A stretch of 64,000 bases of DNA from Escherichia coli. Lineage in GTDB: Bacteria > Pseudomonadota > Gammaproteobacteria > Enterobacterales > Enterobacteriaceae. Of the stretch, positions 17,632 through 21,591 are shown in pieces (position 1 is the first letter of the stretch; each line of letters starts with the position of its first letter). The notes under the pieces are model-generated. The model was given only the letters and a program-made list of their open reading frames with translations. It searched no databases and was not told the origin of the DNA. The stretch lies in the NCBI RefSeq assembly GCF_016026235.1, contig NZ_CP065613.1; one strand, given 5' to 3'. The translations under genes were made by a program, and so were the position numbers.

Positions 17632-18270
17632 TTACATGAAGAATGGCTTATCGCCATCAGTCCCGGGTTGATTGATGCCTATATTCTCATCAATGTGTTT
17701 CTCAGGTTTATCGATGATATCTGTAATTAATGCTGCGACACTCTTACGTGATACGATCGTACCTTTGAATGGTTCATTGCGTGAGGTAAGCTCATAATCA
17801 ATAATATCTTCATCCGTCAGCCAGGCAGGGCGAAGAATTGTATATTCCAGTCCAGAAGCCTCAATTGCATCCGCAGCCCTGCGGAATGGTTTTAGGGGCT
17901 CACCAATAACTGCATTATTCCATTCGCCAAATTTTCCAGGAACTTCATCATAAATGCCGAGGGAAAGAACAAAGATCAGACGTTTAACATCACAGGCTTT
18001 CATCGCAGCGATCACTGAATTTGCCTGAATATCTAAATCTTCCCCCGTAAGGTTGGCATACACAATATCCTGTCCCTGCATGGCCTGCTTCAGTGCTGCA
18101 TGATTCAGTACATCCCCCATAATAATCTGGCTATTAGTTGGATAGGGTTTGTGTATTTTTGCTGGCTGACGAGCAAATAAAGTTTGTTTAATGGTTTGTT
18201 TATCTGCCAGTTGATTAATCACATGGCGGGCTATCTGACCGCCAGCACCAAGAATGAGTACATTTTTCAT
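17632..18270 (-). CDS. NAD(P)-binding NmrA-like protein
   Basis: N-terminal Rossmann motif MKNVLILGAGGQIARH; lies between mpaA and the hydrolase genes. Confidence 0.7.
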   Translation of the reverse strand: MKNVLILGAGGQIARHVINQLADKQTIKQTLFARQPAKIHKPYPTNSQIIMGDVLNHAALKQAMQGQDIVYANLTGEDLDIQANSVIAAMKACDVKRLIFVLSLGIYDEVPGKFGEWNNAVIGEPLKPFRRAADAIEASGLEYTILRPAWLTDEDIIDYELTSRNEPFKGTIVSRKSVAALITDIIDKPEKHIDENIGINQPGTDGDKPFFM

Positions 18271-18870
18271 AATATTTCTCATGAAACTTATCACAGATGG
18301 GTGTTGAAAAAAGGAATAACTTTTTCCAGCTCCTCCTGAACAGCTTCCGGTTTGTCATACAGTTCATAATGTGAGAAATCGGGTAATGAAACTAACTGAC
18401 GATCCTGCGAAACCATCGCCCGGCCATAGACTTCCAGTCCATCACGATAAGCACCGAAGGCACCGACTTTTTCACCAACTACTACCATCACCGGCTGAGT
18501 CAGTAACACTTCAGTAAATGCGAAGGCATCCCAGGCCAGCGTTTTCTGTGCATGTGAGAACAACATTTTTGTCGCACCTCCCGGTTGTTGCCCGCGTGGT
18601 GTTTTATAGTAGTCAGTTGCTTCATAAACATCGCGTTCGGTCAGTCCATGGGCTTTTGCTGCATCCAGGCTGGCGGGAAGTAATTCGTTGATCTGTAATT
18701 CTCCACCACGAGCCTCTTTGGTTCGTTGCGACGCCATTGCATTCAATGCGCCAATCGGATCGTAATTGCTGAAACCTTCCCGAAAAAGACGCCCGATATT
18801 AACACCCGTAATACTCACTACAGCTTTAATTCGTTTTTCTGTCAGCGCGGCATTAATGGCATAGCCACCC

Positions 18871-20320
18871 GTTACTTTATTCGTACCCCTTATAATGGGG
18901 TGTTAGCCAGCCAGACCCGGCATGATTACTGCCCCCAGTCGTCCATGATCCGGGGGGTGATGTCACCGGGTCTGGTGGGGCGCTGGTAACCGCTAATAGG
19001 GGTCAGGTCAGGCACTTTTGCCGGGACCGTCTGTAACGTGGATGCCGGTACCTGCTCCCCGTGGTTATCTGGTTAACCCATATACAAGGGAGACAGAATG
19101 ACCGAATCCAGCGATTACGAATCCGTCCAGGTCTTTATCGGCGTTGATGTCGGTAAAGATACGCATCACGCTGTTGCCATTAATCGTTCAGGTAAACGCC
19201 TGTTCGATAAAGCATTACCCAACGACGAAAACAAACTCAGGTCGCTAATATCTGACCTGAAACAACATGGTCAGATACTGCTGGTTGTTGATCAGCCAGC
19301 TACCATCGGTGCGTTACCTGTCGCCGTTGCCCGCTCAGAAGGAGTCCTTGTCGGATACCTCCCTGGACTGGCCATGCGCCGCATAGCCGACTTACACGCC
19401 GGTGAAGCTAAAACTGATGCTCGTGACGCTGCCATCATTGCCGAAGCTGCCCGTACCCTGCCTCACGCGCTACGCACGCTGAAACTGGCTGACGAGCAAA
19501 TCGCCGAACTCTCCATGCTCTGCGGCTTCGATGATGATCTTGCCGCACAGACAACGCAGGCCAGCAACCGTATCCGCGGCCTTCTGACCCAGATACATCC
19601 GGCACTGGAGCGCGTTCTCGGTCCGAGACTTGAGCACCCGGCGGTACTCGATCTTCTCCAGCGATATCCCTCACCAGAAAAACTCGCTTCGCTGGGTGAG
19701 AAGAAGCTGGCAGCCCAGCTCTGCAAACTTGCGCCTCGTCTGGGTAAACGCCTTGCAGCAGACATAGCTCAGGCACTGGCCGAACAAACCGTCGTCGTTC
19801 CCGGCACGAATGCCGCTGCCGTAGTACTGCCACGTCTGGCACTCCAGCTCATCACGCTGCGTAAGCAAAGAGACGAGGTGGCGCTTGAGGTAGAACAGCG
19901 AGTTCTTGCTCACCCTCTTTACCCGGTCCTGACCAGTATGCCCGGAGTCGGTGTCAGGACCGCAGCCAGACTCCTCACCGAGGTCGCCTGCCGCGCCTTC
20001 GCCTCTGCCGCACATCTCGCTGCTTATGCTGGCCTTGCGCCGGTAACTCGGCGATCCGGCTCGTCAATACGCGGTGAGCATCCCTCGCGACGGGGTAATA
20101 AAGCTCTCAAACGGGCGTTGTTCCTGTCGGCCTTCGCCGCGCTCAGGGATCCGCTCTCCAGGGCTTACTACACCCGCAAAATGAGTCAGGGAAAACGACA
20201 CAATCAGGCGCTTATCGCCCTGGCGAGACGACGCTGCGACGTTCTGTTCGCCATGATGCGCGACGGGACTTTTTATACCCCGCAGGGGTCATAACATGCT
20301 TGACAACTTAATAGGGGCAC
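18871..20320 (+). mobile_element. IS110-family insertion sequence (about 1.45 kb, no terminal inverted repeats seen)
   Basis: Limits set by loss of hydrolase homology on both sides; 227-bp 5' leader, transposase ORF, 26-bp 3' end. Confidence 0.75.
19098..20294 (+). CDS. IS110-family transposase (DEDD N-domain plus C-terminal domain)
   Basis: 398 aa; N-terminal FIGVDVGKDTHHAV and C-terminal MPGVGVRTAARLL motifs; RBS aagggag. Confidence 0.85.
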   Translation: MTESSDYESVQVFIGVDVGKDTHHAVAINRSGKRLFDKALPNDENKLRSLISDLKQHGQILLVVDQPATIGALPVAVARSEGVLVGYLPGLAMRRIADLHAGEAKTDARDAAIIAEAARTLPHALRTLKLADEQIAELSMLCGFDDDLAAQTTQASNRIRGLLTQIHPALERVLGPRLEHPAVLDLLQRYPSPEKLASLGEKKLAAQLCKLAPRLGKRLAADIAQALAEQTVVVPGTNAAAVVLPRLALQLITLRKQRDEVALEVEQRVLAHPLYPVLTSMPGVGVRTAARLLTEVACRAFASAAHLAAYAGLAPVTRRSGSSIRGEHPSRRGNKALKRALFLSAFAALRDPLSRAYYTRKMSQGKRHNQALIALARRRCDVLFAMMRDGTFYTPQGS

Positions 20321-20670
20321 CCCCCCACACACACCCAGCACGCCAATGCGTTCAGCATCAACATATGGCAGAGTTACTGCATAATCGATAACACGGCTAA
20401 TATCCTCTACGCGCTGTGTCGGATCTTCTATCCAACGAGGCTCCCCACCAGATTCTCCCTGGAAACTGGCGTCATAAGCGAGAACGACATAGCCTTTTTC
20501 AGCCAATGCCTTGCCATAGATATTGCCAGACGTCTGCTCCTTACAACTGCCAAAAGGATGGACGCTGATAATCGCCGGATACTGTTTTGACTCATCAAAA
20601 TTTGGTGGAAACTGAATATTGGCAGCAATATGCCAGGCCATATCACTATTGCGGATTTGAATATGTTTCA

Positions 20671-21591
20671 TTACAGAGTTTCCTCAAAGAACGGAGCTAA
20701 TACTGAAATTGCTTCAGCCACATAGGCTTTGCCGTCATAAAGATCCATATGGTTTGCGCCTTCAACAATGTGATAGCGTTTATCCTGGCTTGATGCCCGA
20801 TCGTACAGGTCGTCACTCATCCATTTGCTCCCTGCCTGGCTGCCCGCCACAATCTGCGTCGGCTGAGTCAGGTACACTTCCGCCATATGGTAAGCATCAT
20901 AGGTAATAATCTGGTTAAGGCTGCGCAAAGTAGCGTAACCCGGTGCTGTTGGATACTGCGCGCGAGGGGTGTGGTAATACTCCCAGGCCTGACGCAGTTC
21001 TTCGTTCGGCGCATCGGACTCCTTCATTGGTGCCAGTGGCATAATGGCGTATTCTTCGCTGCTAATATCGCTGGTTCGGGCGTTTGAGCCAGCTTCAATG
21101 TGTGGCAGAGCATCAATAGATTTCACATTGTTTTCCCAACCATTGCGGAACATCGAACCAATATTGACCGCACTAACGGTACCGATGGCCTTGATGCGGC
21201 GATCCTGAATTGCAGCATTGGCTGTATATCCTGCACCGGCACAAATTCCCATCGCACCAATTCGGGTATTGTCGACATAAGAAAGCGTTGTCAGGTAATC
21301 AATCACGGCACTGACGTCTTCAGTACGAATGTATGGGTTTTCTAACTGACGCGGCTCGCCGCCACTTTCACCCTGATAAGATGCGTCATAAGCAATAGTG
21401 ACAAATCCCTTTTCCGCCAGTTTTTCGGCATAGGTCCCGGCCGTTTGTTCTTTAACGCCCCCACCTGGGTGAGATACCACAATTGCCGGATATTGACGGG
21501 TTTCATCAAATTTTGGAGGAAAATAGATCACTGCAGACAAAGAGATGGTTGGATTATTGCTGTTAGTGAAGCTGACTTTATTATTCATCAT
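20671..21591 (-). CDS. ycjY: alpha/beta hydrolase
   Basis: Intact ORF divergent from pgrR; ATGA overlap with the downstream paralog. Confidence 0.75.
   Translation of the reverse strand: MMNNKVSFTNSNNPTISLSAVIYFPPKFDETRQYPAIVVSHPGGGVKEQTAGTYAEKLAEKGFVTIAYDASYQGESGGEPRQLENPYIRTEDVSAVIDYLTTLSYVDNTRIGAMGICAGAGYTANAAIQDRRIKAIGTVSAVNIGSMFRNGWENNVKSIDALPHIEAGSNARTSDISSEEYAIMPLAPMKESDAPNEELRQAWEYYHTPRAQYPTAPGYATLRSLNQIITYDAYHMAEVYLTQPTQIVAGSQAGSKWMSDDLYDRASSQDKRYHIVEGANHMDLYDGKAYVAEAISVLAPFFEETL

What the first reader, a model, noticed from the sequence alone, without database searches (positions are those of the whole stretch)
18871..20320. IS110-family element with a structured 227-nt 5' leader (bridge-RNA candidate) splitting a hydrolase gene
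A 1.45-kb element encoding a 398-aa IS110-family transposase interrupts a ycjY-paralog gene; joining the flanks restores GVCGG-GGYAINAAL, matching the intact paralog. The element has no terminal inverted repeats, a long leader and a 26-bp 3' end, as in the IS110 group. The leader contains a perfect 10-bp inverted repeat CCAGACCCGG (18910-18919) / CCGGGTCTGG (18965-18974) with an inner C5/G6 stem. IS110-group elements are known to encode a guide-like bridge RNA in this region; its loops would specify the target (GCCACC | C-run) and donor ends.
Basis: partly seen in the sequence, partly recalled or inferred. Interest (0 to 1): 0.6.

Follow-up and report, generated by a model that had tools for sequence, protein, structure and literature searches.

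The report
ISEc20 insertion sequence with bridge RNA
This is a copy of ISEc20, a catalogued mobile element of a family that uses its own small "bridge" RNA to choose where it inserts; its leader has the expected two-loop RNA, aimed at runs of C, so the finding is correct but ordinary.

Summary
Window 18871-20320 is a complete 1450-bp copy of ISEc20 (IS110 family, IS110 group). It is ≥99% identical to copies in about 1,300 E. coli records. Durrant et al. 2024 already list it as an IS110-group element with the long non-coding end on the left. It splits a ycjY-paralogue hydrolase gene in the O145:H28 lineage.

The 10-bp inverted repeat lies one base to the right of the stated coordinates. Joining the flanks gives nine C's, which is a frameshifted allele; eight restore the ORF.

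The bridge-RNA interpretation is supported. In 42 relatives from Burkholderiales to Actinobacteria the leader folds into a 5' hairpin plus two stem-loops with internal loops, and 21 base pairs show compensatory changes.

- **First loop (target):** ACUGCCCCC matches the left flank, and GGGGGG(UG) is complementary to the right junction.
- **Second loop (donor):** UAAUAGGGG matches the right end, and GUAACGU(G) is complementary to CAC|GTTAC.
these are the two target guides, not a conserved stem.

Relatives with altered loops have correspondingly altered flanks or ends. Two clean empty sites show a scarless 1450-bp insertion into a C-run. The exact 2-nt crossover register remains unresolved. The element and mechanism are known, so interest is low.

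The parts
18871..20320 (+). ISEc20, complete 1450-bp copy (the inserted DNA)
   Evidence: the same 1450 bp lies between different flanks at more than 30 sites; empty sites equal the joined flanks.
18862..18870 (+). Left half of the target (TAGCCACCC). The last C's are the target core and the start of the C-run.
   Evidence: positions -1, -2 and -3 are C in 32, 30 and 30 of 32 sites. This site matches the left target guide at 4 of 9 positions.
18871..18875 (+). Left end GTTAC, the right half of the donor site, paired by the right donor guide
   Evidence: invariant in 42 relatives. It is complementary to GUAAC at 19033-19037.
18873..18878 (+). TACTTT, proposed -10 box of the promoter formed when the ends join in a circle
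   Evidence: TAC[TC][TA]T is kept in all relatives. The spacer to the TTGACA in the right end is 17 nt if the junction is CAC|GTTAC. Inferred, not tested.
18885..18901 (+). 5' stem-loop of the RNA (ACCCC / GGGGU)
   Evidence: for the fold. helix 1: 4 of 5 pairs show compensatory change.
18910..18920 (+).
   Evidence: helix 2: 97.4% paired and 6 of 11 pairs compensatory. for the coordinates.
18928..18936 (+). Left target guide ACUGCCCCC (same sense as the left flank plus core)
   Evidence: flanks such as cACTGCCCCC|GTTAC (L007). L088 has GAGACGCUC against flank ACGCTC|, and L089 has AUUCAUCCU against TTTCATCCC|.
18938..18949 (+). Small hairpin between the two target guides
   Evidence: helix 4: conserved and 98% paired, with no compensatory change.
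18952..18959 (+). Right target guide GGGGGG followed by UG. The 8 nt are complementary to the right junction CACCCCCC.
   Evidence: CAC+C5 is the commonest right junction. L088 has UGAGAGUG against CACTCTCA (8 of 8).
18966..18976 (+). Target-binding loop, outer stem, 3' arm
18978..18992 (+). Donor-binding loop, outer stem, 5' arm
   Evidence: helix 5: 94.6% paired and 7 of 12 pairs compensatory.
18994..19002 (+). Left donor guide UAAUAGGGG, identical to the right end TAATAGGGG (20309-20317)
   Evidence: the guide and the right end covary, with GGGGC, GGGAC and GAGGC haplotypes identical in 30 of 42 loci.
19006..19028 (+). Donor-binding loop, inner stem-loop
   Evidence: helices 6-7: 4 of 5 pairs compensatory.
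19033..19041 (+). Right donor guide GUAACGU followed by GG. GUAACGUG is complementary to CAC|GTTAC, the joined ends.
   Evidence: invariant in relatives. for the coordinates.
19046..19059 (+). Donor-binding loop, outer stem, 3' arm
19098..20294 (+). Recombinase (transposase) gene, 398 aa
   Evidence: the C-terminal domain aligns to the IS621 recombinase (8wt6, E=1.2e-14), including the catalytic serine motif SGSS.
20300..20305 (+). TTGACA, proposed -35 box of the junction promoter
   Evidence: TTGAC[AG] is conserved 15-16 nt from the right end in relatives.
20309..20320 (+). Right end TAATAGGGGCAC, the left half of the donor site plus the donor core
20321..20326 (+). Right half of the target (CCCCCC)
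18291..18870 (-). 3' part of the interrupted ycjY-paralogue hydrolase gene
20321..20671 (-). 5' part of the interrupted hydrolase gene

Best explanation
The segment is an intact, probably active copy of ISEc20, an IS110-group element that moves by RNA-guided site-specific recombination.

**Proposed cycle (inferred from IS621 and the family literature).** The element leaves as a 1450-bp circle whose joined ends read ...TTGACA-N15-CAC|GTTACTTT.... This junction would form a promoter (TTGACA, 17 nt, TACTTT). The promoter would transcribe the leader into a bridge RNA of about 175-190 nt. The RNA has a 5' hairpin, a target-binding loop and a donor-binding loop.

**Guides (shown by sequence).**
[quoted passage not shown] GGGGGG pairs with the top-strand C-run on the right.
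- The following UG pairs with the element's own ...CA once strands are exchanged.
[quoted passage not shown] **Reaction.** The DEDD/serine recombinase bound to this RNA exchanges strands between circle and target at a 2-nt core. The element inserts into a C-run, ideally ACTG followed by about ten C's, without duplicating the target.

**Shown here:** element identity, ends, scarless insertion, conserved fold, guide complementarity and its covariation.

**Inferred:** the circle, the promoter, RNA expression and the chemistry. The exact core remains open (donor AC against target CC, or one base to the left).
For: **Identity**
- Searches identify ISEc20. One search gives the Pfam domains.
- One search shows homology to the IS621 and ISCro4 recombinases, with the SGSS serine and the KTDxxDA aspartates aligned.
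- the Durrant 2024 supplement lists 'ISEc20;ISSfl4' as IS110 group, LE type.

**Scarless insertion**
- Tape-measure gene: the empty site is GATCTG-C7-TGCTG with 100% identical flanks. The occupied site is GATCTG-C5|IS|CC-TGCTG.
- At the window locus the joined flanks equal the IS-free C9 allele.

**Fold**
- 92.4% of cells are paired.
- 21 pairs show compensatory change.
- The covariation score is 0.303 against 0.182 when shuffled (0 of 500 shuffles reach it).
- It is no more than 0.097 when partners are slid by 1-3 columns.

**Guides**
- One search gives the coordinates; the flank is C at -1 in 32 of 32 sites, and the commonest right junction is CAC+C5.
- L088 and L089 are relatives with a different target loop and matching flanks.
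- the left donor guide and the right end covary (30 of 42 identical 8-mers; no permutation out of 5000 reached this).

**Junction promoter and held-out relatives**
- the promoter elements are conserved.
- a model built from 42 relatives finds one strong hit in the window (18903-19062, 165 bits). It also finds the held-out relatives.

**Family mechanism:** PMC11208160 and PMC11208158.
Against: - No RNA, circle or recombination data exist for ISEc20 in the library searched.
- Rfam has no matching family, and my model does not detect the IS621 bridge RNA (best E=0.22 with a meaningless alignment). Membership therefore rests on architecture, not RNA homology.
- The distal left-guide positions (ACUG) do not covary significantly with flanks across the family (p=0.26). 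The window's own left flank matches the left guide at only 4 of 9 positions.
- The left donor guide does not clearly pair with the core.
- Left and right guides imply different bases at one core position (target C, donor A).
- Some occupied and empty comparisons from other lineages differ by 1-3 nt.
Confidence: 0.85

Rival explanations
1. The leader is only a 5' untranslated region. It would carry part of a promoter and a structure that controls transposase translation, as was thought for IS110 ends before 2024. The protein alone would recognise the C-run target.
For: The last 40 nt of the leader can form a hairpin near the ribosome-binding site. The conserved TTGACA and TACNNT elements would also suit simple expression control. 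No expression data are available.
Against: - The four loop segments match the target and the ends in the strand pattern of IS621.
- L088 and L089 changed both the loops and their flanks.
- The left donor guide and the right end covary at three different positions.
- The recombinase is homologous to one solved in complex with a bridge RNA.
Confidence: 0.04
2. C5 (18932-18936) and G6 (18952-18957) would form a structural inner stem, and the guides would be the flanking unpaired stretches CAUGAUUACUG and UGAUGUCA.
For: The minimum-free-energy fold of the RNA alone pairs C5 with G5, and RNAalifold keeps these pairs. In the free RNA this helix very likely forms.
Against: - None of the 5 pairs shows a compensatory change. 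In L018 and L089 the changes break the pairs (helix 3), and the L088 guide segments are only partly complementary to each other.
- CAUGAU and UGUCA are nearly invariant across elements, including those with different targets. They behave as scaffold, not guides.
- The C5 and G6 runs match the C-run flanks.
Confidence: 0.08
3. This copy is a dead relic. It has the anatomy but no longer moves.
For: This particular insertion is fixed in only 9 genomes of one lineage. Its left flank matches the left guide poorly.
Against: - The ORF is intact and identical to WP_001358663.1, which is found at many different sites.
- There are up to 9 places per genome, and copies occur on plasmids and prophages.
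- The leader is identical to that of the other copies.
Confidence: 0.05

Closest known systems
IS621 of E. coli (IS110 family): bridge RNA plus recombinase (Durrant et al. 2024, PMC11208160; Hiraizumi et al. 2024, PMC11208158)
   Same: - The protein has the same two domains, and the catalytic serine motif aligns.
- Both have a long left non-coding end, a short right end and no inverted repeats, and both insert without a scar.
- The RNA has a 5' hairpin and two stem-loops with internal loops.
[quoted passage not shown]
- Both left guides are 9 nt long, and in each a conserved CAUG motif lies a few nucleotides upstream.
- A GUGAU motif lies before the left donor guide. This comes from comparing the 177-nt IS621 RNA with the ISEc20 leader. 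I verified that the IS621 RNA sequence lies upstream of an annotated IS621 gene.
- The -35 box sits in the right end and the -10 box in the left end.
   Different: - The protein is 398 aa against 326 aa. Sequence similarity is detectable only in the C-terminal domain by phmmer.
- RNA sequence homology is not detectable.
- The target is a homopolymer C-run rather than ATCGGGC-CT-AC, so the two target guides are complementary to each other over 5 bp.
- The donor and target cores appear to differ at one base (A against C) instead of sharing CT.
- The right donor guide pairs contiguously (8 bp), without the two flipped-out U's.
ISBma3 of Burkholderia and the prototype IS110 cluster (ISfinder names grouped with ISEc20 in the Durrant 2024 supplement)
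   Same: - 79-82% protein identity.
- Identical ends..CCCC|GTTAC[TC][TA]T ... CATAGGGGCAC|CCCCC.
- The loops are nearly identical and the fold is the same.
- ISSfl4 of Shigella is the same element at about 99.7% identity.
   Different: - The stem sequences and the distal left-guide positions differ (ACUG against CUCG, GUUG and others).
- ISEc20 has an extra U in the left donor guide.
- The -35 box is one base closer to the end.
IS1111-group elements with a seekRNA or bridge RNA downstream of the gene
   Same: Same protein family and the same RNA-guided principle.
   Different: Those elements carry the RNA in a long right end and have subterminal inverted repeats. ISEc20 has only 26 bp after the stop codon and no such repeats, so it is not of that group.

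Membership tests
IS110 family, IS110 group | [quoted passage not shown] | tested here: met
   PF01548 covers residues 14-168 (E=1.4e-48) and PF02371 covers 277-358 (E=3.7e-21). RRSGSSIRG aligns with the IS621 ESGSSVRG motif (catalytic S241), and KTDARDA aligns with KTDTVDA (D102, D105). The N-terminal pairwise alignment is weak, so the D17 and D65 equivalences rest on the Pfam match.
IS110 family, IS110 group | No terminal inverted repeats; long left and short right non-coding ends | tested here: met
   at best 8 of 20 identities between the ends. The leader is 227 nt and the right end is 26 bp.
IS110 family, IS110 group | Site-specific, scarless insertion around a short core, with no target duplication | tested here: met
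   the empty sites equal the joined flanks; the flanks have a strong C-run consensus. The position of the core within the C-run is not resolved.
IS110 family, IS110 group | Circular intermediate whose joined ends form a promoter | not testable with these tools
   Only the sequence is consistent: TTGACA, 17 nt, TACTTT if the junction is CAC|GTTAC.
Bridge RNA (as defined for IS621) | Non-coding RNA in the left end with a 5' stem-loop and two stem-loops that carry internal loops | tested here: met
   all four stems have compensatory changes (4 of 5, 6 of 11, 7 of 12 and 4 of 5 pairs). No shuffle out of 500 reaches the observed score.
Bridge RNA (as defined for IS621) | First loop pairs with the target and second loop with the donor; 5' sides pair with the bottom strand and 3' sides with the top strand | tested here: met
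   One search gives the coordinates. Searches give the flanks. Searches give the reprogrammed relatives L088 and L089. One search shows covariation of the left donor guide with the right end.
Bridge RNA (as defined for IS621) | All four guides include the same core dinucleotide | tested here: inconclusive
   The left target guide ends in CC. The right target and right donor guides both read G-U at the core, which pairs with AC. The left donor guide stops at ..GGGG(C/U). The donor core therefore appears to be AC and the target core CC, but the register is ambiguous by one base.
Bridge RNA (as defined for IS621) | RNA is expressed and bound by the recombinase, and reprogramming it redirects recombination | not testable with these tools
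   No data for ISEc20 were found.
Bridge RNA (as defined for IS621) | Detectable RNA homology to a curated or validated bridge RNA model | tested here: not met
   no Rfam 15 hit at E≤10 in the leader; the subfamily model does not find the IS621 RNA. This is not a defining feature of the class, whose loops and stems vary widely.
IS1111 group (seekRNA type) | Long right end carrying the RNA; subterminal inverted repeats | tested here: not met
   The right end is 26 bp and there are no inverted repeats.

The most novel reading that the evidence does not exclude
The ISEc20/ISBma3 subfamily may be a bridge system with two unusual properties.

1. It targets a homopolymer, so its two target guides pair with each other in the free RNA. 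This could gate target binding.
2. Its donor core (AC) differs from the usual target core (CC). The right target guide plus UG is then fully complementary only to the product junction CACCCCCC, which would bias the reaction towards insertion.

A corollary concerns the odd pure-C alleles found without the IS at loci that are occupied in other strains. Examples are the C9 and C10 alleles at the window locus and a C11 run that replaces AACAC6 in dgcE. These could be traces of gain and loss of the element. If so, the IS would be a driver of frameshift-prone homopolymer tracts.
Probability: 0.2. Interest if true: 0.5.

Novelty: already known. Interest (0 to 1): 0.22.

Why it matters
For annotation, it explains why one of two tandem ycjY-like hydrolase genes is split in O145:H28 strains. 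It also shows that the gene carried a slippery C-run that is already frameshifted in related EHEC genomes.

For the field it adds little. ISEc20 is catalogued and was already placed among the bridge-RNA elements.

The guide map given here could still be useful to anyone wanting a second, natively E. coli bridge recombinase. It covers the left target guide (ACUGCCCCC), the right target guide (GGGGGG + UG), the left donor guide (UAAUAGGGG) and the right donor guide (GUAACGU + GG). It is backed by a very broad set of natural relatives and two naturally reprogrammed ones. The homopolymer target and the one-base difference between the donor and target cores are the only points that might repay an experiment.

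Tried and rejected
**Searches that found nothing useful**
- Rfam 15 at E≤10 over 18000-21000 found nothing in the leader.
- A covariance model of the subfamily did not detect the IS621 RNA.
- Literature searches for ISEc20 and ISBma3 returned no study of their targets or RNA.
- An empty site for L127 was not found. Its flanks are not contiguous elsewhere, so it is a rearrangement joint.
- The hrpB-mrcB empty site was not pursued because REP-copy variation made it uninformative.

**Crossover models rejected**
1. *Core CC next to GTTAC with a 2-nt duplication (1452-bp unit).* Rejected because the clean empty sites show no duplication.
2. *The A of ...GGGGCAC comes from the target (net 1448 bp).* The rtcB-like locus suggested this. 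The tape-measure site has no A in the empty allele, which rejects it. It would also leave only a 15-nt promoter spacer.
3. *Donor ...GGGGCA + core CC.* Rejected because in L088 the two target guides would then imply different cores.

**Other negative results**
- The tandem array in L008 (periods 1452 and 1453 bp) was considered as a proxy for the circle junction. I rejected this because unequal exchange between the flanking C-runs explains it.
- A permutation test for covariation between the distal left-guide positions and the flanks was not significant.
Full report
**What is there.**
- Window 18871-20320 is a 1450-bp segment with one ORF (19098-20294, 398 aa) on the plus strand. The protein has the two Pfam domains of IS110-family recombinases: DEDD_Tnp_IS110 (E=1.4e-48) and Transposase_20 (E=3.7e-21).
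- The whole segment matches 1,482 E. coli records in 1,462 of 5,426 complete genomes. In 1,310 records the identity is ≥99%, and the gene is annotated 'IS110-like element ISEc20 family transposase'. Shigella copies are named ISSfl4.
- Thirteen copies compared side by side share exactly GTTACTTTATTCG...AATAGGGGCAC between unrelated flanks. A further 30 prophage contigs bring the total to 32 distinct left junctions.
- This particular insertion occurs in only 9 genomes, the best match being O145:H28 strain RM12761. The window therefore comes from that lineage.

**Check of the observation.**
- Leader length (227 nt), 3' end (26 bp), lack of terminal inverted repeats (best 8 of 20 identities) and interruption of a ycjY-paralogue hydrolase gene are all confirmed.
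- The perfect 10-bp inverted repeat is at 18911-18920 / 18966-18975, one base right of the stated coordinates. A repeat that long appears in 9 of 300 shuffles of the leader.
- Joining the flanks gives GCCA-C9-ACAC, which is out of frame. Eight C's give the full 310-aa protein with ...GVCGGGGYAINAAL....
- The nine-C allele exists without the IS in strain 2017C-4109, with 100% identical flanks. A ten-C allele occurs in O157:H7, and an intact allele GCCACCACCCCC occurs in other strains.

**Ends and mode of insertion.**
- The flanks are C-rich. Position -1 is C in 32 of 32 sites, -2 and -3 in 30 of 32, and -4 in 26 of 32. The right junction reads CAC followed by five C's in 12 of 26 sites and by four or six C's in 6 more.
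- Because the target is a homopolymer, boundaries cannot be read from one site. Two clean pairs settle the net event.
  - In a prophage tape-measure gene the empty allele is intact, has 100% identical flanks and occurs in hundreds of genomes. It reads GATCTG-C7-TGCTG. The occupied allele reads GATCTG-C5|GTTAC...GGGGCAC|CC-TGCTG.
  - At the window locus the joined flanks equal the IS-free C9 allele.
- In both cases exactly the 1450 bp were added, with no duplication, and the CAC at the right end came with the element. This is the scarless, core-centred insertion described for IS110 elements (PMC11208160).

**The leader across relatives.**
- The recombinase is 79-82% identical to ISBma3 of Burkholderia. 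A scan of one genome per species returned 80 loci from Burkholderiales, other Proteobacteria and many Actinobacteria at 69-94% identity.
- Where both ends could be identified they read ..CCCC|GTTAC[TC][TA]T ... TTGAC[AG]-N-CATAGGGGCAC|CCCCC.
- An alignment of 42 distinct leaders shows nearly invariant loop segments and variable stems.
- I counted pairs on a structure I specified: a 5' hairpin, the outer stem of loop 1, a small hairpin inside loop 1, and the outer and inner stems of loop 2.
  - 92.4% of cells are paired, and 21 pairs have changes on both sides.
  - The covariation score is 0.303, against 0.182 for shuffles (0 of 500 reach it) and no more than 0.097 for partners slid by 1-3 columns.
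  - Per helix, 4 of 5, 6 of 11, 7 of 12 and 4 of 5 pairs are compensatory.
- In window coordinates the stems are 18885-18901, 18910-18920 with 18966-18976, 18978-18992 with 19046-19059, and 19006-19028.
[quoted passage not shown] The 3' side pairs with the top strand. ISEc20 fits this pattern.
- *Left target guide.* ACUGCCCCC (18928-18936) reads like the left flank. L007 has cACTGCCCCC|GTTAC, and L002 and L009 have CTGCCCCC|.
- *Right target guide.* GGGGGG (18952-18957) is complementary to the C-run on the right. Together with the next UG it is complementary to the whole right junction CACCCCCC.
- *Left donor guide.* UAAUAGGGG (18994-19002) is identical to the right end TAATAGGGG (20309-20317).
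- *Right donor guide.* GUAACGU(G) (19033-19040) is complementary to (C)AC|GTTAC, the joined ends.

It consists of the two target guides.
- None of its five pairs shows a compensatory change.
- In the relatives where these segments differ, L018 and L089, the changes break the pairing (helix 3).
- In the free RNA the two runs probably do pair. That is a consequence of aiming at a homopolymer.

**Covariation of guides with DNA.**
- Most relatives keep the same C-run target, so informative cases are few but clear.
  - L088 is a 1473-bp Arthrobacter contig, by inference a collapsed multi-copy repeat. It has GAGACGCUC in place of the left target guide, and its left flank ends ACGCTC|GTTAC. It has UGAGAGUG in place of GGGGGGUG, and its right junction is CACTCTCA, a perfect complement.
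  - L089 has AUUCAUCCU with flank TTTCATCCC|, and UCUGUGUG with right junction CACAAGGT (6 of 8 pairs counting one wobble).
- The left donor guide and the right end covary as ATAGGGGC, ATAGGGAC, ATAGAGGC and, in L089, ATAGGAGC. The 8-mers are identical in 30 of 42 loci, and no permutation out of 5000 reached that number. Relatedness inflates this figure.
- In contrast, the four distal positions of the left target guide do not covary significantly with flanks (p=0.26). In E. coli they are only weakly enriched; for example, G at -6 occurs in 13 of 32 sites.
- Site choice therefore seems dominated by the C-run. The window's own left flank TAGCCACCC matches the left guide at 4 of 9 positions, and its right flank matches fully.

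**Junction promoter.**
- The right end carries TTGACA (20300-20305) 15 nt from its tip. Relatives carry TTGAC[AG] 16 nt from the tip.
- Left-end positions 3-8 are TAC[TC][TA]T in all relatives, with the last T invariant.
- If the circle junction is CAC|GTTAC, as the 1450-bp net insertion implies, the spacer is 17 nt (18 in relatives). This matches the known reconstitution of a promoter across the core. It is inferred, not tested.

**Where the crossover lies.** I tested several registers.
- *Core CC with a 2-nt duplication.* Excluded by the clean empty sites.
- *Target-derived A (net 1448 bp).* This fits the rtcB-like locus exactly when IS-free alleles from other lineages are used (97.3% identical flanks; CTGCCCC-A-CCCCCC). 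The tape-measure site contradicts it, and it would give a 15-nt promoter spacer.
- *Donor ...GGGGCA plus core CC.* This makes the two target guides of L088 disagree.
- *Best remaining reading.* The donor is ...ATAGGGGC-AC-GTTAC... and the target is LT-CC-RT. The invariant C sits next to the top-strand cut, and the other core base differs between donor and target. Both 3' guides then read G-U at the core, and the next bases act as handshake guides (GG against the target ..CC; G against the element's ..C). A register one base to the left cannot be excluded.

**Unexplained.**
- IS-free alleles in other lineages at three occupied loci carry an A-interrupted C-run complementary to GGGGGGUG. Meanwhile the nearest IS-free relatives carry pure C-runs, including a C11 run that replaces AACAC6 in dgcE.
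- Four right junctions read CAC|GTTA[CT] with no C-run.

**Comparison with what is known.**
- The recombinase aligns to the IS621 and ISCro4 recombinases solved with their bridge RNAs (8wt6, E=1.2e-14; 9t56). The catalytic serine motif and the KTDxxDA aspartates are conserved.
- I recalled the 177-nt IS621 bridge RNA from memory. It agrees with every residue named in PMC11208158. It also matches E. coli DNA 100%, immediately upstream of an annotated IS621 gene.
- Side by side, both RNAs have a 9-nt left target guide, with a conserved CAUG motif a few nucleotides upstream of it, and GUGAU before the left donor guide.
- Sequence-level RNA homology is not detectable, however. Rfam 15 has no hit. 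A covariance model of the ISEc20 subfamily finds the window copy (165 bits) and held-out relatives (73-178 bits), but not the IS621 RNA.
- The Durrant et al. 2024 supplement already lists 'ISEc20;ISSfl4' as IS110 group with the non-coding RNA end on the left. It clusters ISEc20 with IS110 and ISBma3. No paper in the library discusses ISEc20 or ISBma3 guides or targets.

**Verdict.** The finding is real and its interpretation is right. It describes a catalogued element of a now well-understood kind. The useful additions are exact coordinates for the RNA parts, the reassignment of the 'inner stem' as the target guides, proof of scarless insertion into a C-run, and the note that the interrupted gene's C-run is itself unstable. 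The homopolymer target and the apparent one-base difference between the donor and target cores are the only features that depart from the IS621 model, and they remain untested.

Noticed in passing
window 18868-18870 and 20321-20326; loci L013, L014, L015: The ycjY-paralogue hydrolase gene carries a slippery C-run. The intact allele reads GCCACCACCCCC. IS-free EHEC-lineage genomes have frameshifted C9 (strain 2017C-4109) and C10 (O157:H7) alleles. In the window the joined flanks give C9, so the gene may have been a pseudogene before the IS arrived.
   Followed up: yes
L008 1-4450 (E. coli SMN197SH3 chromosome): Three head-to-tail ISEc20 copies with periods of 1452 and 1453 bp. The junctions are GGGG-CCCCC-GTTAC and GGGGCAC-CCC-GTTAC. 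Unequal exchange between the flanking C-runs is the likely cause, rather than a trace of the circle junction.
   Followed up: partly
L103, L108, L127 (E. coli prophage contigs); L042 2715-2735 (Cupriavidus laharis): In these four loci the right junction reads GGGGCAC|GTTA[CT]... with no C-run. The right flank mimics the element's own left end, the sequence that the right donor guide pairs with. The flanks of L127 are not contiguous in other genomes, so at least some of these are rearrangement joints.
   Followed up: partly
L128 (E. coli STEC388 dgcE) compared with L017 (K-12) and L003 (occupied): At the dgcE site that ISEc20 occupies in strain 2014C-3061, the closest IS-free genomes have CCAG-C11-AACAG where K-12 has CCAG-AACACCCCCC-AACAG. 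This gives a frameshifted gene in STEC388. The origin of this pure C-run is unknown; it could be a pre-existing target or a scar.
   Followed up: partly
L085 about 2690-2740; L095 about 1320-1345: A relative in Georgenia has more than 38 C's directly after its right end. A relative in Arthrobacter has its right target guide expanded to G13AGGG. Homopolymer instability therefore affects both the targets and the RNA gene.
   Followed up: no
L018-L097: The ISEc20/ISBma3 subfamily keeps 69-82% protein identity and identical element ends across Enterobacteria, Burkholderiales and Actinobacteria (Microbacteriaceae, Arthrobacter). This suggests recent transfer between phyla.
   Followed up: no
window 1-64000: The only run of seven or more C's or G's in the whole 64-kb window is the one at the IS right junction (from 20320).
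   Followed up: yes
protein P0002: A 530-aa database protein joins the ISEc20 recombinase to a PF05930 domain. This is probably an annotation read-through from a flanking gene.
   Followed up: no
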